Below, piece by piece: positions 8,693 to 61,586 of a stretch of 64,000 nucleotides of DNA. This stretch comes from Octopus vulgaris (taxonomy: Eukaryota), in contig OX597814.1 in assembly GCA_951406725.2 (NCBI GenBank), forward strand, positions 21,886,001-21,950,000. The letters are read 5' to 3'. The number at the start of each line of letters is the position of its first letter. Positions within the stretch are counted from its first letter, which is position 1. The notes beneath the pieces were generated by a model, which worked only from the letters and a program-made list of their open reading frames with translations, was not told the DNA's origin and did no database searches. The translations under genes were made by a program, and so were the position numbers.

Positions 8693-8739
<47 letters not shown>

Positions 8740-11700
8740 TACTTGCCAGCCCCACTTGTAATAGTACCATGTAAGAAGCACCTGTGCTGGTGCAGTGTAA
8801 AATGAATCTGTACTGGTTCCAGATAAAAAAAAACATCCATGCCAGTGCCATAAAAAATGTACCCATACCTGTACCACATAAAAAGCACCTGTGCTGGTGC
8901 CATGTAAAAAGCACCCATACTGATGTCATATAAAAAGCATCCAGTACACTCTATAAAGTTGTTGGTATTAGGAGGAGCATTCAACCATAGAAACCATGCA
9001 AAAACAGACAATTGGAGCCTGATGCAGTTCTCTGGCTTGCCAGCTCCTGTCAAACCATCCACCCATACCAGTATGGAAAACAGGTGTTAAATGATGATGA
9101 TGATGATTTACTAGTATCTTATGTAAAGGCAGTTCTTTAGCTGAAATGTTATAACATCAGCATATAGGTGTTTGATCCTGTTTCTTCTAAATTCACATAA
9201 GAATCAACTTTCATCTCTGAAACATATGAACTGGGTACTTTGGCTGAGTATAGCTAAGAAGTTCTCATCCAAACCATGTGGATTCAGGTTCGATCCCACA
9301 GCACAGGACTGGAGACAAGGATATATTCCTAGAGCTCCAGACCAACTAAATCCTTGAGACGGGATGTTCTTTGGATGGGAACTAAAATAAGCCCATCATA
9401 TGCACGTGTTTACATTTTCACTTTACCAAATGTCACAAACTAAAGGCAGTGATAATGTCATTTCCCTGTCAATGTAGGAGTGGCTGTGTGGTAAGTAGCT
9501 TGCTTACCAACCACATGGCTCCGGGTTCAGTCCCACTGCGTGGCACCTTGGGCAAGTGTCTTCTACTTTAGCCTCAGGTCGACCAAAGCCTTGTAAGTGG
9601 ATTTGGTAGACAGAAACTGAAAGAAGCCCATCGTATATATGTATATATATATATATATGTGTATGTATGTATGTGTGTGTGTATATGTTTGTTTTATTTG
9701 TGTTTGTCCCCCCCCCCCCCCACATCACTTGACAACCGATGCTGGTGTGTTTACGTCCCCATAACTTAGCGGTTCGGCAAAAGAGACCGATAGAATAAGT
9801 ACTAGGCTTACAAAAAATAAGTTTTGGGGTCGATTTGCTCAACTAAAGGCGGTGCTCCAGCATGGCCACAGTCAAATGACTGAAACAAGTAAAAGAATAC
9901 TTTTCCACCTTTGAAGGCACATAATATAAAAGATCACTTATTGAAAAACATCTAAAGATTAGCAATAGGAAGTGTGTCTAGCAGTAAAACAATGTCTCAC
10001 CAATACATTCATCTAACCCATGCTAGCATAGAAAAACAAACTTTATTGCAGCTGATTGAGTTAATTATATTTGATTCTGTGTAAAAATTTCCCTTGTCAA
10101 TGTAAAATTTAATAATCTGCATAAAAATCACAAGGTTTAATAGAATGTTAATTAAAACATTTAGAGTAATACTTTCAGAAGTGTGAAGGCTTTGTAAAAA
10201 TGAATTTGCCATAACATCCAATGAACTTTTTTTTATAGTTCCTCTGAGAAATTTATTTGAACTAACAGTTCATTATTATAAATTGCTCATTATATGAGAT
10301 TTTAACAGCTTTTCCAGAGAAATTTTACAGTAACAATTTCAGAAGGAAGAAGAAATAAAAATATGTTTACTGCTTTACTGTGAATGAGATATACGTTCAG
10401 ATAATTTCCAAAATAAATACTTATGTTTAAACCCAGAGCTGAATTTTTGCCAAGCATTTTATAGGCAGCATTTTACTTTCATTTAGAAAATAAAATGTTC
10501 AGTTCAACAAAAAAGTAATAAACAAAAATTTGCCTGCTGTGAAAACAAACCACTGTCAACTCTCTTAACTGCTTAGGTTTCATCAACCACATAATCTTCC
10601 AAATTAAAGTCATGTTTATATGTACTGCTCCTAGCTGGCTTCTTGTCTGGCCAAAATTTTATTCAATATTTCACTTCTTTTTCTATTTTTTTTTTTGTTT
10701 CCTGGATTAAGTAGTTGTACTGTAACCATGTTGGGCCATAGCCTTTATGAGTCTTAGTTGGTTATATTAATCAAAGTACTGTTACTTTACTGAGTCCAGA
10801 CGAAAAAGGACATGAAAGTAAGCTGCGCATAAAATGGCTCTAACCAATATGGGTTGAAATGCCAAAAAGTATTTTCATACAATGCAAAGATTTTCTATCC
10901 TACACTGACATACAACTGAGTTGTGAAGTAGAGGATTGACTTCTTCACAGCTTCATATCAAATTCTGCTTAGACCTTGAAGCCATGGTGGAGTTGCTATG
11001 TATATCTGTGAAGATGTCACACCTCTTGTATTATTGTCACATTCAAACTCAGTTTGCAACACCTTAATAATACATATCAAGCAAGCTGCACAATATATTG
11101 TCTACCAAATACCACAAAATATGATGGAAAATTTGAGGATAGCCTCAAACACATTGAAGAGGTATTAACAAACCTAGATCAGAACATCAACATACTCTTC
11201 TTGGGTGATTTCAACCTCCCACATGTCAAATGGCCAGAAGACCACATCCTCTCTGGGATGTCACTGCATGAACAAAAGCATGTAGCGTCATTATTTGAAC
11301 TTACTAATAAGCTGTTCATGGAACAAGTGATACTCAGGCCAATCAAGGGGAAAACATATTGGACATATGCTTCACAAATAATGTGGACCTTTTCCATGTA
11401 AAGATGACACCAATGACACTCTCAGACTACAAAATTGTTGAACTAACTATGTATGGTACTGTACATATTGTTGGTATTTACTCTATCAGGAGGACTAGAG
11501 CTTTATCCAATCTGAATTTCCATAAGGCAAAATGGGAATCAATCCACAGAGATTTACAAACGAAACTGGTCCAACATTCTGTGAATGCAAGACATTGATC
11601 TGAAACTCAGCCAGTTTATGTCAACAGTGCAAGCTATATGCACTAAATATATCCCAGAAAGAAAGGCCAGCACACTGTCAAACCAGATTCCCAGGGACAG

Positions 11701-13659
11701 AAAATCCTCATGAGATGCAAATCAAAGACCTCAAAGCGGCTGAATAGACAACTGAAAGATAGAGAGAAGTCTCTTAACATGGACCCTCCTAGGAACTGAA
11801 AGCAAGATCAAACTCTCTCATGAAAGGAAAAAAACAAAGAGCAAATGGCTGTGGAAAGCATAAAAACAAATCCCAAAGTTTTCTATAAATTCGCAAAGGA
11901 AACAGCTACAATACAATATAAAATAGAACTTTTGTTCCAAGGGAATGGCTCACTGATGGCAGACCCACGGAGGATAATTGAGATAATTAGTGAACAATTT
12001 AAAAGTGTCTTCATTTCCCCACTTGGACACATGCAGATAAAAAAATACAGCTGAATTCTTTGATATTGCAGCTCTAAAAAAAGGAGACACCAGCCATCAA
12101 TTACATCAACATTGAGGAAACAGATGTAACAGTGTCTATAGATGAAATGAGCTCATGCTCTGCTACTGATCCTGATGGCTTCCCAGCTATTCTCCTAAAG
12201 TCATGTAAGCAGGCTTTAGCGAAACCACTTCAGATACTTTTCCGAAGTTTCCTTGCGTGTGGTATACTTCCTAAAAAGCTGAAAAAAGGTATTATATGTC
12301 CTATCCACAAAGGTGGAAGCATAGCAGAGGCCAAAAACTACTGGCCAATCTCTCTGACTTTGCATATCAGTAAAGTCACGGAGTGAATCATCAGAAGTTG
12401 GTAATGTTCCTAGAAGAAAATGACCTACTGAATAATACTCAGCATTATTGCCAATTATTATTCTTTCATCCAGGAAGAAGCTGACTCACACAGCTCCTAC
12501 AGCACTGTGACTAGGTTTTGAAACAGCTACTTGACCATTCAGATGTCACTGTGATATACATTGACTTTGCAAAGGTATTTGACGAAGTAGATCATGGCAT
12601 GATAAGTCATAAGCTATGAGACCTTGGCATCGCTGGTAAACTAGGAGAGTGACTGCATGACTTCCTGAAAAACAGAAGTCAGGTAGTTGCAGCCAATGGT
12701 GCCCTTTCTGAGGAAACTCAAATCCTAAGTGGTGTCCCCCAGGGAACTGTTCTAGGGCCATTACAATTCATAACAGCCCTCTTAGATATGCCCACAGTCA
12801 CTCAGACAGCCACTGTCGCTAGTTATGCCAATGATACAAAATTATCATAGGCAATAAAAAACCAAGAGGATGTCACAAGTTTACAGTGGAACTTAAACTC
12901 AATATACAAGTGGACTGAAATAAACAATATGCAGTTTAATGCTGGAAAATTACAAGCACTGCTCTATCAACTCACAAATACAGTACAATCTACATTTACA
13001 GGACCCAAAAGCATTACAATCCCAGAGTCACAGGCAGTGAAAGACTTGGGGATCAATATATGCATAAGCTTCCCCTCGCTGGGTTGACATCCACTGATTA
13101 GTTTTGGGCTAGTTGCCCCTTATCAATGTGGAGTAGCCAAACCCAGCAGGCGTTGCTGCTGACTGTCTGTTTGAAGGATTATTTACCTAAATTCAGTGGA
13201 ATACATCCACTGGTTTTCAAAATTAGAAATATTAACATTTCTATATCCATATATATATATATATATATATATAAACTCTTTAAGCTGATGTCCCAGTATG
13301 GCTGCAGTCCAATGAATGAAACAAGCAAAAGATAAATAGTAATAATAATTTTTAAACATTAAACGTACGTCCGTAGGTAACTTAATACAGAATGATTTCC
13401 GTCATTTCTTTCTCTTTTGCCTGCGTCGTTTGTTTTTTAAGTGCTTTGGTTTTACTGGGATCGCCCTTTTAAGTAGAAAGAATAGCCAAAACTTTTTGAC
13501 TGCTATTTCTAAATTCGGAATGTGGTGAGGCAAATCGTTGCTGAACCCTTAATTAATTAGTATTACTTAAACCTTCCTTGAATGGGTCTTTTACATGCCG
13601 AACTCTACTTGGTGAAATTAATGATTATTTCTAAATTAATTAATTTCACCCTATATTAT

Positions 13660-13721
<62 letters not shown>

Positions 13722-16247
13722 TTTTCGCTCAGAGATTTAAATTTAAAATTATTTGTTTTTCTTCTTTACAAGATCAGTGACTCAGTGTCGCTTTAAAAGT
13801 ATATACTATGAGCAGGAGCAAGTGGCTGCTATCTCTAGCCAGCAGCTGTCCTATACCGATGGAAGGGAATTACCCAGAACCATTGGTCTACAGGTATTGT
13901 TATGGCTAGAAAGGAAGCAGTAGGCTCCCTTGCTCATAGCATACAGACATAGATCATGTGTCGGTAGCCAGCTGGAAAAGATGTTTTTCGGGGGCTAAAA
14001 AGTAGTAACATCATCCCATGTAGGACTGCCACTTCACATTGGCAAATCTCTCTCTATATATAGATAGATATAGATATATATACATACATACATATATATA
14101 TTGTATGAGTTTTTCTTTCTTCCACCATTTGGCAATCAATGTTGGTTTGTTTTTATTGCACTAACTTAGTAGTTCAGTGAAGAGAAACAGACCAATAGAA
14201 TAATTTCCAGACTTTAAAAATAAGAAATGGAGTTGATTTATTTGACTAAACTCTTTAAGCTGATGTCCCAGTATGGCTGCAGTCCAATGAATGAAACAAG
14301 CAAAAGATAAATAGTAATAATAATTTTTAAACATTAAAATTTACAAAGTAGGTAGTAAGCACTCCAGAACTGAATCTTTCTACATCATGCAAAACATTTT
14401 AAAAGGAAGGTAGGGTAGGGGAAACCCCTCCTATTATTCAGACTATAATTATGCTATATATAATATTCATTGTAATCTGTTATATAAAGCAACAGTTTGT
14501 TCAATTTGAGATCATTTCAAAATAATCTGACTAATTTTTAGATGAATTATCATATAATATTGCATAGAAAATGTTGGCTAATAATTCATCTCTGTGTTTC
14601 ATAATACATAAGAATTCATTTTCGAAATTTATTTTGCATACATCACATTCATAGTAAACTATAAATCATGTATTCTGAAGTTGTTGCAGTAAAAGTTTTG
14701 GAAAAGCTGTTAAATAGGATAATTATCATAAGTTACAGATGTGGCTGAGTGGTTAACAAGTTTGTTTTGCAGCCATGTGGTTTCAGTTTCAGTCCCACTG
14801 TGCTGCAGATCAAAGATGATCAAAGCCTCATGAGTCAATTTGGTAGAGGAAAACTGAAATAAAAGCCTTTTCCATGCTTGCATGGGTCAGACAATTTGTT
14901 GAGGCAGATTTTCTTTGGGTAGATGCCCTTCTTGGCATCCAAGCAAGGTAATATTTCTTCATGGCCAGACAAATTTTTCACAGAAGACTGGAAACAAACA
15001 ACATTGTTTGTATGGAGGTGACACTCATTTGCAACCATTTTTCATAACCTTTCCACTACATATATATATATATATTTATATATATACATCGGCAAGTAAC
15101 AAATGCCATTTGAAGGTGGCCATTGCCAGTACTGCTTGACTGGCCCTTGTGCCAGTGGCACGTAAAAGCACCCACTACACTCTCAGAGTGGTTGGCATTA
15201 GGAAGGGCATCCAGCTGTAGATTCTCTGCCAGATCAGATTGGAGCCTGATGCAGCCTTCTGGTTTGCCAGTCCTCAGTCAAATCGTCCAACTCATGCTAG
15301 CATGGAAAGTGGATGTTAAACGATGCTGATGATGATGATCATCATCATTATCATCATCATCATTTAACATCCATTGTCCATACTGGCATGGGTTGGATGG
15401 TGTGACCAAAGCTGGCAAGCTGATTGGGCTGCACCAGACTCCTGTCTGATATGATATAATTTCTACAGCTAGAAGACCTTCCTAACACTTTCCACTTTAT
15501 AGAGTGTGCTGGATGCTTTTACATAGCTCTTCATGGTGCTTTTACATGATGCTGCACAGGTGTTTTTGCGTGTTACCATGTGGGTGCAGTTACATGTCAC
15601 CACAAGGGTGCTTTTATGTGTCACCACATGTATATGTATAGTGCAAAGATTATGCAAGATGTAATACAGAAACAAGGTAAAAATAGATAGAGTTGGTATT
15701 AGTTAATTGCTTGGGAAATGGAGAAAAAATTTAAGAAATATCTTTAATGTTTCACCCTTGTCTTGAAATCACATCATGGTTATAAATGTGCATCATCATC
15801 ATAATCAAACAAGCAATGTTGTTTGTTTCTAATCTTCTGTGAAAAATACAAGAACAAATTACCTTGCTTGGGGAAGCAGGTGAGTGTTGGGGACAGAAAA
15901 GCATTTGACCTTGGAAAGATTTGTCTTGACAAATTCCATTGGATCTATGAAAACATGGAAAAGTGAATGCTCAGACAATGGCTGGATGACTTATAAAATC
16001 ATTTTACAGATTGAAATTTGTGAAATATTGATGCCTTTTTCTTTTTGGTTTTTAGTTATTTGACTTGATATCAAGAAGAGCATCCAGCTACAAAAAATTC
16101 TCACTCAATAATGTTTCATCTAACCCAGCCAACCAGAGGAAAGAGAAAGTAGATGTTAAAGCAGTGCTATGCATACATATATTATGTGTGTGTATATACA
16201 TATATATATATATATATATAGAAAGATAAATATAGATAGATATAATA

Positions 16248-16294
<47 letters not shown>

Positions 16295-16704
16295 AGAGAG
16301 AGAGCTTGTTTTATATCCAACTTTTCTATGCTTTTATGCCCAACCTCTCAACTGTTAAGTTAAAGTACAATCTGCTTTTTATGTGAACTACAATCTGCTC
16401 AACTTTCATAAAAGCAGAATTATGTGCTTTGCTCAGGTGCACATGATGGCAATTAGGTCATGTTTGTGTGTGTATATATACGTATATGTGTGTATTCATA
16501 TGTACATATGTGTGTGTATATATATATATATATACATCCATATGTATATATATCTATATGCATGTATGTATATATGTATATACATATGTATATATATGTG
16601 TGTGTGTGCATATATATGTATATATATATATATATATGTATGTACATGTATTTCTATATATATACATGTATATATATATTTTTGTATATACATGTATATA
16701 TATA

Positions 16705-16743
<39 letters not shown>

Positions 16744-17921
16744 TAGCTTAAGGTGACCTGCTCTACGCGCGGGTAAGAGTGAGGTTGTTACTTTCTGTTG
16801 CTTCCTTTCAGCACGTAAAAAGCACCATCCGAACGTGGCCGATTGCTGCGCTGCCCTGACTGGCTTCTGTTCCAGTGGCACGTAAAAAGCACCAACCAAT
16901 TGTGGCCGCTGCCAGCCCCCCTGGCACCTGTGCCGGCGGCACGAAAAAAGCAGCCACTACACTCGCAGAGTGGTTGGAGTTAGGAAGGGCATCCACCTGT
17001 AGAAACACTGCCAGATCAGACTGGAGCCTGGTGCAGCCTCCTGGCTTCCCAGACCCCGGTCAAACTGTCCAACCCGTGCTAGCACTGAAAACGGACGTTA
17101 AACGATGATGATTCTCCCTCTTTGTTTCTCTCTCACTTTCCCACTCTCTTACTTTTCTTTTCTCTCGGACTCTCCCTCACTTTCTCTTACTCTCTATCTT
17201 TATCTATATCTCTCCCATTTATAAACAACAAAAGATCTTGAGTAAGTTGAGAAATAAAATATTTTGAAAGATCAATCATAAATATCAGGCAGTGACAACA
17301 GAAAGGTCTGCTTCAAGGCAGAGAGCAAAACACTAACATTTAAAAGGGACAGATGAACTTGCGAGCTGAATAAGAATAATAAAATATTGGAAACCAAAGT
17401 TTGAAGGGATAGAATCTGAGGATAGTAGAGTCACCATGGCTGGCATTTCTTAACGACGGACAGCAACGTATTGACAGTTTAACGGGTGGCGTAAAATTTT
17501 GAACTTGATGTAAAAGAAAATTCCTAAACACCAAGTTTTGAAGTGATTCTTTCTCACGACAGTAGACTCACCATGACAAGCATTCAAAACTTCTTCATCA
17601 TGGACGGCAACACATTGACGATTAAAAGGCTGGCGCAAATTTTTTAGCTTGATGTAACAGAGAATTCCTAAACACCCGCTCCTTTAAATTTTAATCCCCT
17701 TCCAGCCCTATTTAGACCCCTTTTCACATTTTGGTTAATATAACCCGATTTCATTCGGGTCTACTGGGGCCACATTTTATAAGATGAGGAATTTTGTCCT
17801 AGAGGTCACACCTTTCATTTGAGGAAAAAAATAGTTGTCATGCAAACTTGCCAGCACTTTTAACATAGGTGTGCATATTTTCAGCTCAACCGACCACATA
17901 ATGCACACATTATATACATAA

Positions 17922-17957
<36 letters not shown>

Positions 17958-20797
17958 ATGCATGCATTATATATACAAATGTATACAAATTATATATATA
18001 TATGTATAAATTAAATTAGAGATAAAACCACTAATAGGCAAATCAAACAGTGAAAAACATAAACCAAAACATAAAAATAAAAATATAATATACAAAATAT
18101 ATAAAATATAAAATTGAAAAATTTAAATTATTTAAATTTAAAATTAAAATTATTAATTTATTCTTATAATTTTTGTTTAAATATATATAACTATCAAAAC
18201 GTATTAAAAAGTTTAATATACATAAATACAGATATATACACTTTGTATATATACATTATATATACATATTTATATATAGAACACACACACACACACACAC
18301 ATATATAAATTAACCCAATAAATATCTGATTCATAATATTTGTTCTCATAATTGTGTGGTGGTTGTGGCGATGATAATTCTCTCTATGAATGCAGACAGA
18401 CGTAGAGAGAGAGAGAGAGAGTGTGAAAGTACTGTCGAAGGCGGGGAGAGGGGAGATATAGAACGCCGTGACACGACGTTATAAAGGGAAAGTGAAGGTA
18501 AGGGAGTTAGACGCTGTGAAATGACGTTATATATAGAAAGTGATGGGAAGGGAGGAAAGAGAGTGAGTGACGGAGGAAGACAGATACCTAAAAGAATGAG
18601 AGTAGACGTGTCAAAGTGAGTTTTTGGCCCTAGCAACGACACCTTTTAAGATGGAGATTTCTAACCTAGCCCACTAACATCCTCACCTCCTTTTACATGT
18701 CCCTGTAAATTTTGGAGTCAGTCCGACTGGATCTAGTGGCCTTTAACCCATTCTCAATGCCAAAACCAGACAAACAAACAAACTTCGCATTTCAGATTTA
18801 TAATATAGAGATATACAGTGTTTCTATATATATATACATGTATATATATGTATATACATATATGTAGATCAGCCATCTTTCTTTTCCTAACTTGAATATC
18901 TTTCTTTCCTTGTGATCAACTGCAGGGATCAGATGCATTCTTGTCTGTCTCTTGTCAATGCCTGTCCCACCATTGGTCAACACCTCACTTTGTTTAGGCT
19001 TGGCAGCCTTTCCTGTTTGTTTTCACTATCCTGTTTTTGTTACCAACTTTGGCCCTCCGCAAAATCCCAGAGTAGAAAAACAGCCGACAACTGATGAAGG
19101 ATCGTTCTTTATGTTGCTTGTCTTGTTTTAAATCTCTTTCTTTCATTGTTCACAAAAATGTTCGTATTCCATGTTTTCATATTTTGTATTTCATGTTGTT
19201 TACATTCTGTGAAGTACTATGCCCATATATTCACATGTATATACATATATATGTAAGTATGTACATATATGTATGGATATATATATATATATATATATAC
19301 ATATACATATGTGTGTGTATATATATATATATATATATACACACACTTATGTTCTGCAACATGAGGACCAAAGACTTGAAGTGTTTCATGTTGCAAGACA
19401 GTGTGTGAGAGACAATCATGATGTCATAGGAGAGAAATGTGTCTGCATGGATGATAGCTCACTTGCATTTAATGAGACTGCAAAGAAAGAGACTTGGAGA
19501 CGTTACTATGAATGGTTGAGAAATGAAGAGGATGAATGAAGGAAAGAGAGTCTGCCGAATGTCAACCCAGCAGAGGGACCAGCTATCCGAATTGACAGTA
19601 CCTTGGTAGATAAAGCAATTAATGATATGAAGACAGGGAAAAACCCCTCCCCAGCCCATCAGGAATCACCGCAGAGATGCTTAAAATATCTGGCAGTGTC
19701 GGCTATAGTCTAGTCACCTGTATAGTCAATCAGGTGAACCATGACGGAGTCATGCCCAATGACTTGTATAACAGCACCATAGTCAACTGCTATGAAGGTA
19801 AAGGTGATGCATTAGATGCAAACAATTACAGAGGTATCAAGTTGTTGGATCAGGTAATGAAAGTCACAGAGAGGGTCATAGCCCAACTAATTAGGGGGAG
19901 AGTCAGTCTAGACGAGATGCAGTTTGGCTTTGTGCCAGGGAAAAGCACTACTGATGCTATATTTCTGGTAAGACAGCTGCAGGAGAAACACCTAGCCAAA
20001 GATAAACCTCTGTACCTGACTTTCATTGACATGGAGAAAGCCTCTCACATTGTCCCCTGATCCCTTATCTGGCGATCAGTGCAGAATCTAGGGATAGATG
20101 AGTGGTTAGTGAGAGCTGTACAAGCCATGTACAGGGATGCTGTCAGTAAGGTGAGGGCTGCAACAAGTACAGTGAAGAATTCCGGGTTGGAGTAGGTGTC
20201 CACTAAGGATCAGTCCTCAGCCTCCTCTTATACATCATATATATATGTATGAGAAGTATTGGTGTCAAGAAGACCCAAAGGTGTCAGATAATGCTGAGTA
20301 CATGCTATGGACAGACCATAGTTAAGCCCAGGTTCAATAATGATACAAATGAGGAGTATAACGTAGGTCGTGTATTAGCATGCATATATATATAAAAAAT
20401 TAACAGACTGAGATAAAAAAAATCCAAGGCTGTGAATACTTTTCAGAACAACTATTCACAACCTTGGATTTTTATAGTAAATCCTAAAAAAGAAGAAGAA
20501 CAACAAACATAAAAAAAAAACACAAGGGGACATGGTACATGTAAAGTATTAGCTCAAGGAAGGAAAGAAAGATGGCTTAACGTTTTGAGCAACTTCTCTT
20601 CTTTGGAAACAGAGGAAAGTCCAATAGAAAGGAAGACGCAGGAAGAAAATCACCGACGATTCATGTGGTTACATTTTGAAATATATATATATGTATGTAT
20701 GTATGTGTATATGTACATATGTGTGTGTATATATATGTACATATGTGTGTGTATATATATATACATTTGTGTGTATATATATTTGTATGTATGTATG

Positions 20798-20849
<52 letters not shown>

Positions 20850-23800
20850 TACATTAGAAGTCTAGGTTTAAAAAGTACAAATACATGTATTGAAAATCTC
20901 AGCCATTTCTTTTTAATTGTTTAGTTTAGTGTGCTACCAGCTACACTGAGGTCATAGAATTTGACCTGTGATGGAAGAAATACAGAAGTCAGAGAAGAAA
21001 GAGATATTCATGGAATGTATGTCATTGATTCAATAAAAGAACTGTGAATGAATGTTTTGATAAATGAGCAACTAAAGATTATGAATTAATCATAAACAAC
21101 AACAAAAAATTAATTTGAATAGGAATATCATAGAAATAAATTAGCTATTAGGGACAACACCAGTGTTTGTAATGAATATTAATAGGCATATCCAAATATG
21201 CTAATTATTATAGAAATAGATGCCAATGAATGAAATGTTTGATAACCAAATACGGAAATGCATCTACAAACCTATTTAAACTTGAGCCAATGAAGTTTCC
21301 TCTAGATCATTGTTCTACCCAATAGAATTAGCAGCCAAATCTACCTCAACCCTCATGAATTCAATGTACCTAAAACTGCTCCTGGTTTTATGACACAAAC
21401 TTCCTGTTTTAAAATTGATGAGTTAAATCCTTTACTTGTTTCAGTCATTTGACTGTGGCCATGCTGGAGCACCACCTTTAGTCGAGGAAATCGACCCCAG
21501 GACTTATTCTTTGTAACCCTAGTACTCATTCTATCGGTCTCTTTTGCCGAACTGCTAATGTTACGGGGACGTAAACATGCCAGCATCGGTTGTCAAGCAA
21601 TGTTGGGGTACAAACATACACACACACACACACACATATATATATACATATACACAACAGGCTTCTTTCAGTTTCCAAGCTGTCACACGATGGGACTGAA
21701 CCAGGAACCATGTGGTTGGTAAGCAAGCTACTTACCACACAGCCACTCCTGCGCCTTCTAAAATTTCATGCTTTATGTTTTAACAGCTTAATTATGACAA
21801 CGTTATTTTAGTAAATTTTTCATTATTTTAAAAAATTATTGAAACAAAGACAGTGTATTTTAACAGAATATGGTAACAAAAAGATTAAATGTTACTCTAC
21901 ATGCATATTTTTAAACAAAATTGGATAACAGAGTTCTAAGCGCACTTGTCCCTTGTGGAAATATAAATAGTCATGGCTAGAATTACTTTGATCTATTTGA
22001 TCAATGCTGACCTAAGGCTAAATAATAGCAACCAACTTCGATTTTACCAGAACTGTAAAAAGAGCTCTCAACAATTGTAGCGATTTATTTCAAATGAGCT
22101 GACAGTTATTTTACTTCTACTGAATTTTTAATAGAGTAAAATTTTTTCTCTAGTGGAGGCACAATGGCCCAGTAGTTAGGGCAGCAGACTTGTGGTTGGA
22201 GGATCGCGGTTTCAATTCCCAGACTGGGAATTGTGTGTGTTTATTGAGCGAAAACACCTAAAAGCTCCACAAGGCTCCGGCAGGGAGTGGTGGCGACCCC
22301 TGTTGTACACTTTCGCCACAATTTTCTCTTACTCTCTCTTCCTGTTTCTTGAGTAATGCTGTGATGGACTGGCGTCCCGTCCAGCTGGGGGGAACACATA
22401 TGCCACAGAAACCAGGAAACCGAGCCCATGAGCCTGGTTAGGATTGAAAAGGGCGATGAAAATTTTTACAGGACTTTAAAAACATGAGTAAAAGTATAAT
22501 TTTAAGTTGCAAAGGAATATCAATACTAAAGACCTTTATAAATATATTGGACAAATGCAGACAGTAGGATAGCTGAACAATCATGAGACAAAATTAAGAG
22601 CTTAAAAGATAGTTCATCCTCAGCATTATTTACTCTTTTGTTCCCTTATTTCTATTGAATTACACTAACCTACTTGATATTTATCTGGTAATTGAAACAT
22701 AAAATTAACATGAAATTTTGATGAAAGGTTTCGTTTTATCTCACATCAAAAAAGAAAGTTTGTGTCTTAGAGCCAAGAGTAGTCTCAGGCAGGTTGGTAT
22801 CAAAAGGGTTAAGAAAAGCTTCCAATAAAGGAGACTAATTAATTATAGGATAAAGAAAGTACTTAGCTGAAGACCTGTGAAGGAAATTGAGTGAGCAACT
22901 GTTAAACTGGAAACTAATCTTCTGACATCAATAAAGAACTTGCTTGGCAATGGTTTCCAAAAGTCATTAAGATAAATTCAACCTTGGCAGGATAATGCAA
23001 AAGTGCATGAAAGATTATCAATATTAGCGATATTATGATAACAATTATAGCTTTTTATATTTTTGTACTTGTTATCTTTAACTATATTTAGATATAACAT
23101 CGGTCTTCTTTTTTGCTGCCTGTGTTGAAGGTCCTTTATTAAGGGATAAGTAAGTATCAAATATTTCTATTTTAGTGATATATATTTTCTTGATTCTCTT
23201 CTTTTCCTTTAAAGATTTCTAATGTTTTATTAAGAATTGTTTCTTTTTTTTTTTTTTGGATAAATTTGTTCAGCAAAACTGATAACATTTACATATTAGT
23301 TACAAGACTCTTTAAGTATTTTCAAAGAATATTCTCGTATTTTTATGTATGAATTGATTTCTAAGATTTTCAGCATAAAGTGATAAGCAGCAATTTAAGA
23401 CGGAAAGGAAAAGCAGGCCCACAATTCTAATAAATTGATTAAGAATGTTTGTTAGTTTATAAAATACATAATATCTGCTAACTAGAAATTTTGATGTAAA
23501 ATATGAGATTAGTATAACTAGATGCCAAATTGTTAAGCCTGAAACACTTCAGAAAAAGATTAAACAACTGCAGTTGTAATCAACTGATGGCTGTGGATGA
23601 TTTGGAGGTGTATTGAGATCTATAGAGTAAGTTACCTACAAGCAAAAGTGCAACCCAGTTGGTGACCACATCACTTCAATTACATTTCTTATATTTATTT
23701 TTTTTTTAATGGCATGGATACAGTTCTCCTCTTATAGTTTTTGTTTATATGTAAGACATTAGTTACTTAAAATTAGATTTTACTTTTGCTAGTCAGTTAG

Positions 23801-55283: not shown

Positions 55284-55712
55284 ATTAAGTAAAAATGAAA
55301 GAAATCTAAGATAATTTGTTGCTGTTGAAATAACCCAAACATTTCAATGTTTACAATTTTACAGAACCCAAACAGCTGGCCTCGGTGGTTTGAAACATAA
55401 CACAATTATGATCGGATGGCCCTATGGATGGAGACATAGTCCTGAGCAGAAGAGCTACAGGGTCTTTATAGGTAAACCAATTAATTTCAAAATAATTACT
55501 ACTGTGATGTCTTGGCTCTTTTATTTTGAAAGCTTTATTACCTTGTTTCTCATAGCTGGCATCAGAAAGGATGATCAGTCTTAAAAATCATTGCCTCATC
55601 TGATCCATGCAAGCAGGGAAAAGTATACATGAAAATAATGGTGCTGATAGGCTTCCTCATATTTAAGAGGATTGTATACATCTACTTTCTTGCCTTCTTA
55701 ATTGTCTGTGGG

Positions 55713-56784: not shown

Positions 56785-59700
56785 TAAGGCAGTGAGCTGG
56801 CAGAATTGTTAGCATGCCAGGCATAATGCTTAGCAGCATTTCATCCATCTTTATGTTCTGAGTTCAAATTCTGCTTAGGTCACCTTTGCCTTTCATCCTT
56901 TCAGGATTGATAAATTAAGTACTATTGAAACACTGGGGTCAGTGTGATCAACTAGTTCCCTACTCCAAAATTTCAGCCTTTGTGCCTATAGTGGAAAGGA
57001 TAATTATTATTATTTATCAATCATACGTCATATGTTACTCTTATCTATCTGAATATATGATAATTTTAGTTACATGTGTTAGTCTTGTATCTATTTTCAA
57101 ACATAGACCTTTGCTAAACTTTTGGTCCATGGATGATATATTTATGTCTCATCCAAACTATTATCTTGTCCTAGTGACTTTAATATTTGTTACCACTCTC
57201 ATAGTTAAGAATATAATTGATACTGTGTAACCATTACTTGCATGAGGAAACATAATAAAAATTTCTGCCAAATAAAATTATAAATTCATACTCATCAACT
57301 CTCAATGATGTTGAAGTAGTTATGTGACTTAATAGTCATGATACTAAGACAAGATTCTGACAACTGGATTAACAAAGAGCCTTAATTGTGCATTTAAGGA
57401 ATGTCTAATAAACAGTTATCAACTATACACTGTTTAATTTTTTTTTATTACCAATTTTTGTTATATGACTGTCGCAACATAACTGATGACTACATCAAAC
57501 TAGAACTCTCCACACTTCAGAAAGTATCCTCTGCCATCTCATGTTATTCACTCCACAGTTTCTATCATCTGTGTTTCTCTCTTAACATATCCCACACATC
57601 TGGTTTTAGCAAGCCCATGCTATCTTTATTCCTGTTCGTATTATATTTGTCTTGATCTTTAAACATATGTTGATGACTATCATGTATGAAGAGATGATAA
57701 AAGTGTCCTTTTGAGTTGTGTCTTAAATGTGAATACTAATTTGATAAGACAAAAAAAACGGTTATAAGCATATATTCAGTTAACAACAAACATATTTCTT
57801 TTAAAATTTCTTTTTGGCTTAAATGTAATTATGTTTTTTTTTTATATCTCTTTATAGACACCATCAGGAATGTTGCTGGTGCCCAGTTGGCATTAATGGC
57901 CGTAAAAGGCATTAACCAGTTCCCAGTTAACACGCAAAAACTAACCGGAACCATAGATGTCTGGTGGATTGTTCATATCCTTGAAATTAAAATTAATAAT
58001 GTATAGAATTAATTGAGCTAACACCTTTATCAAAGTACAAAAATACATTCATATAAGTTAGAAATACTTTCATCTTTCTTGAAATAGCTTAAATAATTAT
58101 ATCTAAAAACCTTAATTTTATTTTATCCAATTTTTTGTTTGTTTTTTAGCATGATTAGACAGATGTAAAAGGAAGTAAATTTTCCATTGTGTTAAAGCAA
58201 TCAGTAAATATTTTTAACATCATAACTTATAGATATCCTTATCTATATAGCTTAGATCCTTCTAGAAGATTTACATCTCCCTACTGACCGCTAGCATTCC
58301 AACATTTACAAGATAATAGCAATTAAAGCTGTTGATGTCTTGAGCTCAATGGAAGTTCAGTGATTACTTTGGGTAAAATAAACATGCATATGTGTTTATA
58401 CATGTGCATGTTTAATCTCCCATTGATATAAGATGGCTGATAATGATTTTAATAAAAGGTCAGAATTTTCAACATATAACTGGAATGTAAGAGAGATGAA
58501 AAACAAAAGTACCCAAGAATTCATTTAAGGTAAACAAGAGAAACATGATCTCAAATAACAGAATAATTATAATACCGGTGAAGAGAAAGTGTCAGATATC
58601 TTGTCTTTATTTTAACATCTGTTTGGTACCATGGAGAAAGCACCTACACCAGTGCCATGTAAAAGCACCCATGCCACTGCTGCATAAAAGCACCTAGTAT
58701 ACTCTATAAAGTGGTTTGTATTAGGAAGGGCATCCAGCCATTGAAACCATGCCAAAACAGACATGGATCCCAAGCAGCTCTTCAGCCAACATGGAAAATG
58801 GACATTAAATGATGATGATGATTTCCTGTTCTAGATTGGATGAGGAGTTTAAAAAATACTGATTTTACAGTATGTGTATTATTGACAATATTTTATTAAG
58901 GTTTATTATGTGAGTATATGAATTTAACTGTCAGATCATCATCATCATCGTTTAACGTCCGCTTTCCATGCTAGCATGGGTTGGACGATTTGACTGAGGG
59001 CTGGTGAACCAGATGGCTGCACCAGGCTCCAATCTTGATCTGGCAGAGTTTCTACAGCTGGATGCCCTTCCTAACGGCAACCACTCCAAGAGTGTTGTTG
59101 GTTGCTTTTACGTGCCACCAGCACAAGGGCCAGTCAGGTGGTACTGGCAACAGCCACAAAAAAATCGTGTTTTTTTTATGTGTCACCTGCACACCAGCAC
59201 AAGTGCCAGTAAGGTGACGCTGGTAATGATCATGTTCAAATGGTGCTTTTTACATGCCATGGATATTTCTATAAAAAAAAAAAGATAAAAGAAAAATCTT
59301 AATTAATAAGAAAAGTATGTTTAAGTAAATAAACTTGAATAGTTAAGATGTTCGATAAAATGTATTTGTCAATTTTATTTTTAAGTATCAAACCATCGAT
59401 ATATATCAAGATCATTATATGAAAGTTTAAAAAATCAATTTTTTCTTTTAATATCATATTGTTTTGTATATTTGGCTTTTCCCCACAATTATTTGCCTTA
59501 ATTTTGATTATATGAAGGAGGTCTTTTGATGTTGTTGCCCTTCCTGCTTAGACAACACAAAGTCTGGAAAAACTGCAAACTACGGATCTTCACAGTAGCC
59601 CGTATCCTTTGAAAGACCAAAAGTTCAACATTTACACCAAATATTTTTGATATCTAATTTTTCAGGGAATTTGTGTATATTCACAAATCTGAAGGAGGTT

Positions 59701-61586
59701 TTGTTGGGTGTTAGTAAGTATCCCTTACTTTTTGAAGTGGATACAGCTTACATTTCAGGATATATGCCATTCAATATAGTGTAATGAATAAAGGGTGGCA
59801 AAAGTGAATATTTGCTAAGGACAGGAATTGGCATTGGAGAGGAATTACTGTGAATGACAGATGTAAGAGTGAGGTGAAGGAGGAGAGCTAAGAAAGAGAG
59901 GGTTGGTGTGACAGCTGGCTGCCAAATGGCTGATAGTGTATCTAGCTAGCAATGTGTTGTCTGAATTACTTAGTGAGTGTTACACAAAGAGATATGTCTA
60001 GACATCTAGTGAGGCACAACTAAATAGACAAGCACACAAAATGTTAAGCACATGTAGTCAGTGAGTGTACAAATACAACGAAACATAATGTCTGAAAGGA
60101 GTGGAGAAGGATAGGAAGACAAAAGCTGTAAAACCAAGGAGTAAAAAAGAAAAGAGTGAAGTGTTGAAACTAGAGGAAATGAAGGTAAATGTTCATACAA
60201 GTAAGAGCAAAGGTTCTCAGTTCAAAATTGACCTGTTGTGCTTTTCAATTATTACATTGGTATATTCCAAACATGGGTTGACTAGATGTGAAGTGGTGAT
60301 TGACAGCTTTCAGGATGCTTAGGATGGTATTAAGGACATTGAGCAGATGTCTAGGACTTGTTACTCACATACAAAGTCTTGCAGAACAGCATGTAATACA
60401 GTACATTAGATTAGCAAAAGTGCAATCAAAATGGTCAAAAACGGGTAGTTTACTCAAAGCCATATAGAGTAATGATGCTGGGGCTGAAGTGGGGAATATA
60501 ACATTAAGTGCAGGAGGAGCAGGCAAAGGTTCCAAGTTAGGTGTTAGGGACTTTGGAGTCAGAAATTTTACAGAGATTTTTATCACTTTTGAAGAGGAGT
60601 AGGTAAGACTTCGTAGAATATGGGAGCAGTAGTTAGGTCAAACTGTAAAAAAAATTTCAGAAATTATAAGGAAGTGAGTGAAAGATGAGGATGGAAGGGA
60701 ATGTATGCCACAGGTTAGCAGTTCAAGACATAGAAGAGCAGTGGTGCAGTTAATGGTGTGGGCGTAGCAATACCAGTGGAAGTTTGTGGCTACATTCAAA
60801 AGACGGTGAGACAATTCTTGAAATCAGAGGCTATGGAAGAATAGATCTTTTAAAGCTAAATATTATCAGTCTAGTGCCATCAGTACTAGAGAGTTTGTCT
60901 ACTGAAACCAAAGAATTTCCCTTTCCTTCTATTCTCTATGAGCTTTTATTTGGAATAACTGCTTTGCTGAAGGGGTTGCCCCTGCTACAACTTACTGTGT
61001 CCTCATCCTTGTTAGTAATTCTTGACATATCCCATATAATAAATAATTGAAAGAAAACAAGTCTGAAAGTGGGAGTGAGCTCTAAGGATTCTTTACATGT
61101 GCACAGCATTATTATAAACAAATAGTTATATTTAGTGGCTGTTTGGCTGTTGCAACTTTTCCAGTCATGCTTTTTTTACACAGGATTTTTTTTAACACAG
61201 TAGATTTTTCTACAAAATAATAATTTCGTGGTACTGAATTAACTGCCTTAAAATATTTTAAACGTGTGAGTGTGTGTGTTTGTTTGAGAGATTCAATAGA
61301 AAATCTAAAATAAATTAAATGGATTGCATTTTCTTTTGTTTGTATATTCTGAGATTAAATTCCTTTATGTTGACTTTACCTTTCATGTACACAAAATCAA
61401 TAAAATAATACCAACAATTTGCTGGGATCAATATACCATTCATTCAGTTTTTGGTATTCTGTATTTGTTATTTTCTTAATAATACACTTCTTAGAACTGG
61501 AAGATAACAGTATTCAAATGGAAAAGGATCTTAACCAATACATGTATAACTTACGTATTGAAGCTGAAGTTAAAATTGTTGAGATG
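1464..61586 (+). CDS. KCC: K+-Cl- cotransporter (KCC; SLC12A4/5/6/7-like), partial multi-exon CDS: join(1464-1604,8564-8662,23092-23149,26327-26445,28413-28587,29510-29608,31435-31554,33943-34047,37144-37232,42721-42800,48226-48314,55365-55471,57858-57974,59512-59601,61495-61586)
   Basis: Manual splicing gives one frame with matching intron phases (1580 nt). It contains the KCC motifs [88 protein letters not shown] and EDNSIQM. Confidence 0.96.
1829..2125 (+). mobile_element. tRNA-derived SINE, family D (second copy 22153-22456)
   Basis: A-box GGCCCAGTGG and B-box-like GTTTTGATTCC; two dispersed, highly similar copies. Confidence 0.8.
2870..3030 (+). mobile_element. tRNA-derived SINE, family A (other copies about 9475-9900, 14738-14870, 62345-62500 on +; 21425-21755, 45430-45575, 52195-52315 on -)
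   Basis: Head GGAGTGGCTGTGTGGTAAG...GGGTTCA, followed by an internal (TA)n/(TG)n tract; many dispersed copies. Confidence 0.85.
3551..3775 (+). mobile_element. tRNA-derived SINE, family C (other copies about 4133-4330, 40848-41230, 56532-57005 on +; 2200-2418, 6365-6583, 7745-8090, 31826-32052, 51955-52190 on -)
   Basis: Head AAGGYGGTGAGCTGGCAGAAT...GAGTTCAAATTC; core GCCTTTCATCCTTTCRGGGTYGATAAA; (ATT)n tail. Confidence 0.85.
3896..4076. mobile_element. Inverted-structure insertion of the hammerhead-bearing element (family E)
   Basis: Minus-strand tail followed by plus-strand GACAC-CTGATGA-A-GGCTG..CAGCC-AAAACGTT; degenerate TSD ATGATAATCTCA/ATGGTGATCTCA, in a host repeat seen intact at about 4370-4925. 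Confidence 0.7.
5857..6290 (-). mobile_element. Family B retroposon with (GAT)n tail and 5' tandem array (about 20 copies, e.g. 625-828, 8760-9106, 15105-15630, 16810-17112, 25215-25615, 30080-30412, 36745-37110, 39678-39988, 43060-43395, 58640-59260)
   Basis: Shared body GAGTGGTTGGCRTTAGGAAGGGCATCCAGC and tail CCAACCCATGCYAGCATGGAAA...GATGATGAT. Confidence 0.85.
6033..6282. repeat. 62-bp tandem repeat x4 within a family B element
   Basis: GCCACC recurs at 6041, 6103, 6165 and 6227; units are nearly identical. Confidence 0.92.
8095..8430 (+). mobile_element. 3' end of a CR1/L2-like LINE (second copy 28920-29228 on -)
   Basis: [11 protein letters not shown]...[16 protein letters not shown], the typical post-RT C-terminus, plus 3' UTR and (ATT)n tail. 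Confidence 0.8.
8564..8662 (+). CDS. KCC: KCC exon ([33 protein letters not shown])
   Basis: CAG|GT acceptor; ends at U12 donor T|GTATCCTTT. Confidence 0.95.
9475..9900 (+). mobile_element. Full-length family A SINE
   Basis: tRNA-like head, internal microsatellite, and 3' part ending GAAACAAGTAAAAGA, which is shared with 21425-21600 (-). Confidence 0.85.
10800..13060 (+). mobile_element. Decayed CR1/L2/Jockey-group LINE ORF2 (APE endonuclease + RT)
   Basis: [61 protein letters not shown]; many stops and frameshifts. Confidence 0.9.
13272..13363 (+). repeat. 92-bp exact direct duplication of 14247-14338
   Basis: Identical by eye from TAAACTCTTTAAGCTG to TTTAAACATTAAA. Confidence 0.85.
16460..16742. 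repeat. Compound (TA)n/(TG)n/(CA)n microsatellite, one of many in the window
   Basis: Direct inspection; source of the YIYI pseudo-ORFs. Confidence 0.95.
16743..18811 (-). mobile_element. Putative non-autonomous Helitron with nested family B copy and internal ~140-bp duplication (17421-17677)
   Basis: On the minus strand it reads A|TC...hairpin(ACCCGC/GCAGGT)..CTAG|T; pairing of the two ends is inferred. Confidence 0.5.
19355..20230 (+). mobile_element. RTE-clade LINE reverse transcriptase fragment
   Basis: ORF 19677-20060 has [23 protein letters not shown] and FIDMEKA; downstream GVH*GSVLS is disrupted. Confidence 0.9.
22153..22456 (+). mobile_element. tRNA-derived SINE, family D
   Basis: Colinear with 1829-2125. 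Confidence 0.8.
23092..23149 (+). CDS. KCC: KCC 58-nt exon ([20 protein letters not shown]), not in ORF track
   Basis: U12-like branch site TATCTTTAAC about 10 nt before TAG; donor AA|GTAAGT; phases fit both neighbours. Confidence 0.93.
24537..24790. mobile_element. MITE / fold-back element with ~90-bp imperfect inverted arms
   Basis: 24537-24630 aligns to the reverse complement of 24700-24790 (TATCATTTAATGTRCACAGTAT...ATGGGTCTAGGYAGGTTTT). Confidence 0.75.
26327..26445 (+). CDS. KCC: KCC exon ([40 protein letters not shown])
   Basis: TAG|A acceptor; G|GTTTG donor; TM8 motif. Confidence 0.95.
28413..28587 (+). CDS. KCC: KCC exon ([15 protein letters not shown]...[11 protein letters not shown])
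   Basis: CAG|GA acceptor; AT|GTAAGT donor. Confidence 0.95.
29510..29608 (+). CDS. KCC: KCC exon ([33 protein letters not shown])
   Basis: AAG|G acceptor; TG|GTAAGT donor; TM10 motif. Confidence 0.95.
31435..31554 (+). CDS. KCC: KCC exon ([40 protein letters not shown])
   Basis: TAG|G acceptor; GG|GTAAGA donor; TM11-12. Confidence 0.95.
32660..32945 (+). mobile_element. tRNA-headed short element with hammerhead ribozyme motif (family E)
   Basis: B-box GTTCGATTCC at 32718-32727, (AAT)n linker, GACAC-CTGATGA...GAAACGTT-GTGTT at 32812-32858. Confidence 0.75.
33943..34047 (+). CDS. KCC: KCC exon ([35 protein letters not shown])
   Basis: CAG|T acceptor; AG|GTACGT donor. Confidence 0.96.
34255..34622 (+). 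mobile_element. Helentron/DINE-1-like non-autonomous element
   Basis: Subterminal inverted repeat ACCTCCGCC/GGTGGAGGT, (GTTT)n tract, 3' hairpin GCACTC..GGGTGC, TT flanks. Confidence 0.6.
35249..35476. mobile_element. TTAA-flanked (piggyBac-like) MITE; inverted copy at 42827-43039
   Basis: TTAA-CCCTTTTGTTACC ... GGTATCAAAAATG-TTAA terminal inverted repeats. Confidence 0.65.
37144..37232 (+). CDS. KCC: KCC exon ([30 protein letters not shown])
   Basis: CAG|G acceptor; G|GTAAAT donor. Confidence 0.93.
37398..37618. mobile_element. Tc1/mariner-type MITE; inverted copy at 43521-43738
   Basis: TIR ..AAAAGTTCCTGGCTTT / AAAGCAAGGAACTTTT..; TA flanks. Confidence 0.7.
37972..40117 (-). mobile_element. 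hAT (Buster/Charlie/SPIN, GTF2IRD2-like) DNA transposon with degenerate transposase
   Basis: TIR CAGGGGTCACCAG/CAGGAGTCACCAG; 8-bp TSD ATTTAGAA/ATTTAGAG with central TA. ORF fragments [44 protein letters not shown]. Nested family B copy at 39678-39988. Confidence 0.93.
41445..41955 (-). mobile_element. Fragment of an RLE-type non-LTR retrotransposon (R4/Dong-like)
   Basis: Minus strand reads [11 protein letters not shown]...[21 protein letters not shown]...LIDMAVP. Confidence 0.7.
42721..42800 (+). CDS. KCC: KCC exon ([26 protein letters not shown])
   Basis: TAG|GT acceptor; CAA|GTAAGT donor. Confidence 0.93.
43850..44190 (-). mobile_element. tRNA-derived SINE, family F (uninterrupted copy)
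   Basis: Colinear with 48907-49060 joined to 49557-49743. Confidence 0.8.
45627..46023 (-). mobile_element. Non-autonomous Helitron inserted in (TA)n
   Basis: Minus strand A|TCTTTATATA...GC-rich hairpin...CTAG|T. Confidence 0.7.
48226..48314 (+). CDS. KCC: KCC exon ([30 protein letters not shown])
   Basis: TAG|GCA acceptor; CT|GTGAGT donor. Confidence 0.93.
48390..48906 (-). mobile_element. 3' end of an RTE LINE ORF joined to a family B body and tail
   Basis: [14 protein letters not shown]...EGSR..RPRKTW (ORF 48667-48918), then family B motifs. Confidence 0.8.
49061..49542. mobile_element. Head-to-head inverted duplication of family E (hammerhead-bearing) with 14-bp TSD
   Basis: ATTAGTTGTGATGT at 49047-49060 and 49543-49556; about 200-bp inverted arms centred near 49268. 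Confidence 0.88.
49404..49449 (+). ncRNA. Minimal type I hammerhead ribozyme motif
   Basis: GACAC-CUGAAGA-A-GGCUG(gaggguauau)CAGCC-GAAAC-GUU-GCGUU. Confidence 0.65.
50590..51150 (-). mobile_element. RTE-like LINE C-terminal fragment
   Basis: LRRFGHAA...[21 protein letters not shown] (ORF 50687-50983). Confidence 0.75.
51471..51702. mobile_element. Partly inverted retro-insertion with 11-bp TSD and A-rich tail
   Basis: AGATATTTTTA at 51460-51470 and 51703-51713; inverted arms 51471-51506 and 51597-51632. Confidence 0.7.
51902..53546 (+). mobile_element. Mariner-like transposon with degenerate transposase and two nested SINEs
   Basis: TA-flanked TIRs TGARGTG..TTCGAAAAGYATYTGAC; [41 protein letters not shown]. 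Confidence 0.9.
55365..55471 (+). CDS. KCC: KCC exon ([36 protein letters not shown])
   Basis: CAG|A acceptor; G|GTAAAC donor. Confidence 0.94.
55905..56500 (-). mobile_element. 3' fragment of an RLE-type non-LTR retrotransposon (R4/Dong-like)
   Basis: [24 protein letters not shown]...[24 protein letters not shown]. Confidence 0.8.
57858..57974 (+). CDS. KCC: KCC exon ([39 protein letters not shown])
   Basis: TAG|AC acceptor; ends at U12 donor C|ATATCCTT. Confidence 0.92.
57975..59511 (+). other. U12-type intron with apparent AT-AT termini
   Basis: 5' splice site ATATCCTTG; branch TTTGCCTTAAT 10-11 nt before the terminal AT; no AC near the branch site. Confidence 0.8.
59512..59601 (+). CDS. 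KCC: KCC exon ([30 protein letters not shown]), flanked by two U12 introns
   Basis: Branch site TTTGCCTTAAT at 59492-59502; acceptor TAT|AT inferred from protein conservation; donor C|GTATCCTTT. Confidence 0.88.
59602..61494 (+). other. U12-type GT-AG intron
   Basis: 5' splice site GTATCCTTT; branch TTTTCTTAAT about 15 nt before the AG. Confidence 0.88.
60150..60900 (-). mobile_element. Possible decayed Penelope-like element (GIY-YIG region)
   Basis: [16 protein letters not shown] resembles the FxCxSxNxIYCIxC motif of PLE endonucleases; boundaries are uncertain. Confidence 0.45.
61495..61586 (+). CDS. KCC: KCC exon ([30 protein letters not shown])
   Basis: Branch site TTTTCTTAAT at 61471-61480, TAG|AA acceptor; ATG|GTAAGA donor. 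Confidence 0.94.

What the first reader, a model, noticed from the sequence alone, without database searches (positions are those of the whole stretch)
57975..59517. Minor-class intron with apparent AT-AT ends and an alternative in-frame AG
Seen: a clean U12 donor ATATCCTT and branch site TTTGCCTTAAT, but no AC downstream of the branch site. Splicing after ..GATTAT (59511) gives WWIV-H-E-G-G-LLM, matching the KCC motif. An AG 6 nt further on (59516-59517) is also in frame and would give WWIV-R-G-LLM. Known: U12 acceptors are set largely by distance from the branch site, and rare AT-AA/AT-AG/AT-AT introns exist. ATAT on both sides lets aligners slide the junction by 2 nt, so annotation pipelines probably mis-model this spot.
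Basis: partly seen in the sequence, partly recalled or inferred. Interest (0 to 1): 0.75.

Follow-up and report, generated by a model that had tools for sequence, protein, structure and literature searches.

The report
Rare AT-AT minor intron, octopus KCC
An octopus potassium-chloride transporter gene has an intron that starts and ends with the letters AT; RNA and DNA data confirm the junction, the minor splicing machine likely cuts it out, and it is a known rare type that trips up some gene-prediction programs.

Summary
Real, and of a known kind. Intron 57975-59511 lies in the octopus KCC (SLC12A4-7 family) gene. Spliced contigs from 2 of 4 RNA-like runs (two studies) join 57974 to 59512 with ends AT..AT; the other two did not cover it. 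DNA contigs from four studies show no change at 59511, firmly in three, so an assembly error is very unlikely. The donor is ATATCCTT, the branch site pairs 11 of 12 bases with the genome's own U12 snRNA, and its spacing matches human AT-AT introns. The in-frame AG was not seen in use, but contigs drop rare forms. RefSeq models are right; GenBank models of O. vulgaris and Argonauta break here. AT-AT makes up 0.95% of conserved animal minor introns. Extras: the gene holds four U12-type introns. The same intron starts with GT in 13 of 13 non-mollusc loci (AG end in 9 of 9 visible), but read-through errors imply an AT donor in a bivalve and a snail. That is an old subtype switch of unresolved direction. 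No earlier scan note on this intron was found.

The parts
57858..57974 (+). KCC coding exon ending ...IDVWWIV plus the first base of the His codon (phase 1)
   Evidence: RNA contigs aligned with 0 mismatches
57975..57982 (+). U12-type 5' splice site ATATCCTT (A-type)
   Evidence: complementary to the genome's U11 and U6atac; covered by DNA contigs of 4 runs with no listed change here
57975..59511 (+). 1537-nt intron with AT-AT ends; carries common octopus repeats at about 58660-59260
   Evidence: RNA joint 57974->59512, ends AT..AT, runs X9 and X16
59490..59502 (+). U12 branch site TATTTGCCTTAAT; predicted branch A at 59501 (or 59500), 10 nt before the 3' end
   Evidence: 11 of 12 pairs with the genome's U12 snRNA with one A bulged; branch nucleotide inferred, not mapped
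59510..59511 (+). Non-canonical 3' splice site AT
59512..59601 (+). 90-nt exon (H)[29 protein letters not shown](Q), flanked by U12-type introns on both sides
59516..59517 (+). In-frame AG inside the exon, 16 nt after the branch A; not seen used
59602..61494 (+). Next intron, GT-AG U12-type (donor GTATCCTTT, branch TTTCTTAAT)
   Evidence: RNA joint 59601->61495 GT..AG; motifs
8663..23091 (+). Earlier GT-AG U12-type intron of the same gene (V|Y position, also minor in human SLC12A4-7)

Best explanation
This is a real 1537-nt intron with AT-AT ends in the octopus KCC gene, likely removed by the minor (U12-dependent) spliceosome. Inferred steps: U11 and then U6atac pair with ATATCCTT, U12 pairs with TATTTGCCTTAAT and bulges the branch A, and the 3' cut is set mainly by the short distance from the branch (10 nt). 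The AT at 59510-11 is therefore used in preference to the AG 6 nt further on, which keeps the conserved WWIV-H-[DE]-GG motif. History (inferred): the intron position predates the mollusc-annelid split, molluscs carry it with an AT donor, and the octopod form most likely arose from an AT-AC intron by one C-to-T change that the minor spliceosome tolerates.
For: SHOWN. Spliced contigs in X9 (study P6, depth 117.5) and X16 (study P9, depth 141.8) join 57974 to 59512 with ends AT..AT, and also skip the next intron. DNA: the X2 contig over 59230-59750 has 0 other letters; X8 over 59230-59555 has one, at 59346; X6 has two, one listed at 59346 and none listed at 59511; X3 has one unlisted letter, and the tool warned that counting was incomplete for X2 and X3. 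U12, U11 and U6atac genes and a CCDC84/CENATAC match are present in G000. The branch site pairs 11 of 12 bases with U12. Only register 0 has a U12 donor. Spacing is 9 nt after the 9-mer branch motif; the 8 human AT_AT U12 introns in the supplement of PMC8280824 have 9-11 nt (4 of 8 have 9; counted by eye). One exact locus for the exon in G000 argues against a retrocopy as the source of the spliced contigs. INFERRED FROM PROTEINS. H-I-L after WWIV, the read-through of C|ATATCCTT, appears in GenBank models of Pinctada imbricata (P0099) and Biomphalaria pfeifferi (P0204); a GT donor would give R-I-L; chance about 0.002 each. Argonauta P-C-V-Y implies its intron ends in T, and its 9 extra nt equal the spacing after the branch motif here. 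LITERATURE. The branch-to-3'ss distance matters, with an optimum of 11-13 nt, and AT-AG combinations appear disfavoured (PMC3584512, passages).
Against: No lariat, knockdown or raw-read data: minor-spliceosome use and the branch nucleotide rest on consensus and pairing only. The RNA runs are labelled RNA by guess, though precise multi-intron skipping supports it. 10 nt is slightly under the quoted 11-13 nt optimum (counting conventions differ). The AG at 16 nt lies within the 13-17 nt range used by the GT-AG orthologues, so distance alone does not rule it out. No acceptor sequence was seen for any mollusc other than this octopus, so the AT-AC ancestor is assumed. The Argonauta, Pinctada and Biomphalaria readings come from faulty protein models, not DNA.
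Confidence: 0.93

Rival explanations
1. The AT junction is the main one, but the AG at 59516-17 (or 59519-20) is also used at a meaningful level and gives a KCC isoform lacking His-Glu (WWIV-R-G-LLM).
For: The AG is in frame and 16 nt from the branch A, inside the range of the GT-AG orthologues. U12 3' site choice is described as error-prone (PMC3584512 passage). Logan contigs drop rare variants, and 79 joints were not displayed.
Against: Bin depths match a single contig starting at 59512 in both runs (61.06 expected vs 61.1 seen; 73.69 vs 73.7). 0 of 236 junction instances read R-G, including 8 RefSeq Octopus isoforms and 6 Logan cephalopod-like proteins. H-[DE]-GG is present in every correctly spliced homologue.
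Confidence: 0.1
2. The T at 59511 is an assembly error or private variant, and the intron is an ordinary AT-AC.
For: AT-AC is about 23 times commoner than AT-AT among conserved animal minor introns (16044 vs 701). The window differs from all four DNA runs by one C at 59481, so local errors or variants exist.
Against: DNA contigs from four studies and four organism labels show no listed change at 59511; three are firm. The Argonauta model also implies a T.
Confidence: 0.01
3. The true cut is the +2 register (57977-59513, also AT-AT) or another route, with the major spliceosome or a recursive step doing the work.
For: RNA cannot tell registers 0, +1 and +2 apart. One U2 AT_AT entry exists in the human table.
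Against: Only register 0 gives the U12 donor consensus. It is the same position and phase as the GTATCCTT donors of all 13 homologous loci. There is no polypyrimidine tract between branch and acceptor.
Confidence: 0.03

Closest known systems
Non-canonical AT-AT (A-type, AT-AN) U12 introns, e.g. human ERCC5, IK, HNRNPLL, UBR3, KCMF1, SMC3, SRSF12, TCTN1 (PMC8280824 supplement file 1; PMC1557818 Tables 2-3)
   Same: ATATCCTT donor, U12 branch motif 9-11 nt before an AT acceptor; in 3 of the 8 human cases the next exon also starts with AT.
   Different: Different gene and phylum; a competing in-frame AG lies 6 nt downstream; no functional test here.
U12 introns of human SLC12A4-7 (PMC8280824 supplement; mouse Slc12a4 minor intron tested in PMC8848931)
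   Same: The octopus gene has the same two GT-AG U12 introns, at V|Y and N|Y. SLC12A7 has a non-canonical GT-GG end at V|Y, so the family already shows loose termini.
   Different: The human table lists two minor introns per gene and none at WWIV-H or TVA-Q. The octopus gene has four U12-type introns, one of them A-type.
U12 subtype switching between AT-AC and GT-AG (PMC2831892, PMC3584512, PMC3291851; passages)
   Same: Orthologous intron position with different U12 termini in different lineages.
   Different: The literature describes AT-AC to GT-AG as the usual direction and rare; here the direction is not resolved and the A-type end is AT-AT.

Membership tests
U12-type (minor) intron | 5' splice site RTATCCTT | tested here: met
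   ATATCCTT at 57975, at the RNA-supported junction
U12-type (minor) intron | Branch site TTCCTTRAY-like, pairing with U12 snRNA | tested here: met
   TGCCTTAAT, 8 of 9 consensus; 11 of 12 pairs with the genome's U12
U12-type (minor) intron | Short branch-to-acceptor distance, no polypyrimidine tract | tested here: met
   10 nt from the branch A; human AT-AT cases fall at about 10-12 (counted by eye)
U12-type (minor) intron | Organism has a minor spliceosome | tested here: met
   U12, U11 and U6atac over the Rfam cut-off; CCDC84 over the Pfam cut-off; U4atac not searched
U12-type (minor) intron | Splicing depends on U11/U12/U6atac; lariat at the predicted A | not testable with these tools
   Needs knockdown or lariat sequencing
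AT-AT subtype | First two intron bases AT and last two AT in genomic DNA, junction used in mRNA | tested here: met
   RNA joint AT..AT in 2 of 4 runs laid, 2 without cover; DNA in 4 runs
AT-AC subtype | Last two intron bases AC | tested here: not met
   No AC 6-21 nt after the branch A; T at 59511
Tandem alternative 3' splice sites (AT and AG both used) | Transcripts using the second acceptor | tested here: inconclusive
   None in contigs or proteins, but contigs drop rare forms and no raw reads were offered
KCC (SLC12A4-7) gene | SLC12 domain and identity to KCC proteins | tested here: met
   PF03522; KCC1-4 structures, E about 1e-11 to 1e-10; 100% identity to O. sinensis SLC12A4

The most novel reading that the evidence does not exclude
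The intron was GT-AG in the bilaterian or lophotrochozoan ancestor, as in all non-mollusc loci seen (at least three tree groups), and switched to an AT donor in the mollusc stem, the reverse of the textbook AT-AC to GT-AG direction. It then drifted to AT-AT in octopods. This leaves a KCC gene with four minor introns whose single A-type intron could act as a CENATAC-sensitive, rate-limiting valve on neuronal chloride extrusion in cephalopods.
Probability: 0.25. Interest if true: 0.55.

Novelty: new member of a known kind. Interest (0 to 1): 0.32.

Why it matters
Practically, it explains why several mollusc KCC models are truncated or corrupted at one spot: the O. vulgaris GenBank protein loses about 230 C-terminal residues, and Argonauta, Pinctada and Biomphalaria pfeifferi models also break here. 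Aligners limited to canonical ends will miss the junction. Scientifically, it is a transcript-supported natural AT-AT intron with a competing in-frame AG 6 nt away, a ready test of how the minor spliceosome weighs distance against dinucleotide. It is also one intron position seen as GT-AG, AT-something and AT-AT in different animals, which makes the direction of subtype switching testable with public genomes. None of this overturns what is known.

Tried and rejected
RNA runs X23 and X24 did not cover the exons: no evidence either way. No raw-read run was offered and no listed holder was on record as RNA, so junction reads could not be counted. The profile search of protein representatives, meant to collect H-I-L versus R-I-L read-throughs across taxa, never ran because the queue was full, so the taxonomic breadth of the donor survey is limited. 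The ESM Atlas look-up of the 44-aa peptide gave only unrelated hits at 0.77. The tree (175 columns, 45 rows, midpoint root, several long or gappy rows) keeps the GT-AG loci out of the mollusc group, whose support is only 84/89, and cannot root the switch; loci L010, L011 and L016 were left out, and test_one_clade was not run. The 21 R-I-L proteins are not independent of the 13 loci, because the query profile was built from 8 of them. A minus-strand look-alike donor at 36467 and a plus-strand pair at 45187/45548 have no coding context seen and were rejected as chance. Dietrich 2001, Dietrich 2005 and Levine and Durbin 2001 were not held, so their mutational data are cited only through reviews. 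Earlier scan notes: 0 by words; the 8 shown of 282 by genome concern other loci.

Full report
Observation. An exon ending in WWIV plus one base is followed at 57975 by ATATCCTT. A branch motif TGCCTTAAT lies at 59494-59502, followed by nine bases ending in AT at 59510-59511 and then ATGAAGGAGG. No AC lies 6-21 nt after the branch A. The exons match Pfam SLC12 at adjacent positions and solved KCC1-4 chains. The upstream peptide is 100% identical to Octopus sinensis SLC12A4 and has one match in G000. The motifs are rare in the window and fall exactly where the protein requires.

RNA. Of four RNA-like runs laid (all Logan contigs, RNA label guessed), X9 and X16, from two studies, each hold one contig that joins 57974 to 59512 (1537 skipped, ends AT..AT, depths 117.5 and 141.8) and then 59601 to 61495 (GT..AG). 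X23 and X24 did not cover the exons. Mean depth in the bins at both junctions equals what that single contig gives, so no second contig using the AG was laid. Contigs drop rare variants and 79 joints were not displayed, so low-level use of the AG is not excluded. The join fits three registers, AT-AT, TA-TA and AT-AT, and only the first has a U12 donor.

DNA. Four runs from four studies with four organism labels were laid. X2 covers 59230-59750 with no other letter, and X8 covers 59230-59555 with one, at 59346. X6 has two, one listed at 59346 and none listed at 59511. X3 has one unlisted letter. The tool warned of incomplete counting for X2 and X3. The donor is covered in all four with no listed change. 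One of these runs may be the source of the assembly, but not all of them. An assembly error at 59511 is thus very unlikely.

Machinery. G000 holds U12, U11 and U6atac genes over the Rfam cut-offs and a CCDC84/CENATAC match. The branch region pairs at 11 of 12 positions with the genome's own U12 when one A is bulged, and the donor is complementary to U11 and U6atac. The branch A is 10 nt from the AT and 16 nt from the AG. The eight human AT_AT U12 introns in supplement file 1 of PMC8280824 have 9-11 nt after the 9-mer branch motif (four have 9, as here), and three have an exon that also starts with AT (counted by eye). That the minor spliceosome acts, and that distance picks the AT, is inferred from these features and from the review PMC3584512 (passages), which gives an optimum of 11-13 nt and calls AT-AG disfavoured. 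It was not tested.

Proteins. Across 243 fetched proteins the residues after WWIV were HDGG 196 times, HEGG 15, RIL 21, HIL 3 and PCVY once, and never RG. Many rows are isoforms, so these are not independent counts. All 8 RefSeq O. sinensis and O. bimaculoides proteins are correct. The GenBank O. vulgaris model P0009 reads into the intron ([10 protein letters not shown], the window's own intron translation) and stops at 881 aa. The Argonauta model P0002 replaces H with PCVY. The Y requires a T before the exon's first two bases, and the 9 extra nt equal the spacing after the branch motif here, which suggests that its intron also ends in T (inference from a faulty model). So mis-annotation is real but comes from read-through or a wrong acceptor, not from the 2-nt slide.

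Orthologous introns. A pattern for DVWWIV plus a U12 donor with either A or G at +1 found 13 metagenome loci. All 13 start with GT, and all 9 with a visible acceptor end in AG, with the branch A 13-17 nt away. They form about seven sequence groups; L009 and L011 are identical over the 100 nt compared. Loci that lost or converted the intron could not be found by this pattern. In a short-alignment tree none falls within the mollusc group (84/89), L008 and L015 group with Capitella (100/100), and the rest are long-branched or unplaced. In contrast, GenBank models of Pinctada imbricata and Biomphalaria pfeifferi read H-I-L after WWIV, which is what an ATATCCTT donor gives, while GT gives R-I-L (chance about 0.002 each). 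The simplest reading is an A-type intron across cephalopods, bivalves and gastropods and a G-type intron in annelid-like animals. The acceptor of non-cephalopod molluscs was not seen, so AT-AC as the ancestor of the octopus AT-AT is assumed. The direction of the GT/AT switch is unresolved.

Gene context. Mapping P0001 on the window and on flanking stretches shows four U12-type introns: V|Y (8663), H (57975), Q (59602) and N|Y downstream of the window. Human SLC12A4-7 each list two, at V|Y and N|Y.

Comparison with what is known. AT-AT minor introns are catalogued: 6 human and 6 mouse in PMC1557818 (passages and section 24), and 701, or 0.952%, of conserved animal minor introns in PMC10639083 (passages, section 30, supplement Table S1), where AT-AT is the second commonest non-canonical type in animals. 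PMC8280824 (passages, supplement rows) groups them as A-type introns that depend on CENATAC. Subtype switching is described as rare and mostly AT-AC to GT-AG (PMC2831892, PMC3584512, PMC3291851; passages). PMC8848931, PMC1874599, PMC7367187, PMC2426677 and PMC6865273 were seen as passages only and added little. Searches for this intron found no paper describing it. However, both Octopus species were in the PMC10639083 survey, whose per-intron data I could not see, so it may already be listed there.

Verdict. The alternative AG was not seen in use. This is a new, well-supported member of a known rare class, with modest extra value as an annotation trap and as a test case for subtype switching. 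Interest 0.32.

Noticed in passing
window 8663-23091, 57975-59511, 59602-61494 and L022 (G000:C1, about 21960142-21963153): The KCC gene holds four U12-type introns (V|Y, H, Q, N|Y). Human SLC12A4-7 list two each, and Sheth 2006 noted only two human genes with three. The V|Y and N|Y junctions are inferred from protein P0001.
   Followed up: partly
L008, L012-L015, L017, L019, L020, 90 nt after the acceptor: The next intron position (TVA-Q) is U12-type in L008 and L015 as in octopus, has a U2-like donor in 5 loci and is absent in L020: apparent U12-to-U2 conversion and loss at one site.
   Followed up: partly
proteins P0009, P0002, P0099, P0204, P0202, P0203: GenBank mollusc KCC models fail at or just before this intron (read-through H-I-L, inserted P-C-V-Y, or truncation one exon earlier); these errors reveal the intron's first and last bases.
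   Followed up: yes
window 55463-55471 and 57849-57857: The upstream intron has the same 9 nt, TCTTTATAG, at the end of the preceding exon and at its own 3' end, so RNA contigs align from 57849.
   Followed up: no
window 59481 and 59342: All four DNA runs lack one C at 59481, and three carry a 6-nt insertion after 59342; neither changes the branch-to-acceptor distance.
   Followed up: no
G000, many contigs (L027, L028): At least 43 U6atac-like matches over the Rfam cut-off, against 3 U12 and 5 U11 matches: many dispersed copies, probably pseudogenes.
   Followed up: no
window about 58660-59260: High-copy octopus repeats inside the intron (depth up to millions in DNA contigs, also abundant in RNA contigs).
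   Followed up: no
window about 11000-13100, 19500-20050, 52600-53000: Stop-to-stop frames that look like decayed LINE reverse-transcriptase pieces and a mariner-like transposase piece inside KCC introns (names by recall, not searched).
   Followed up: no
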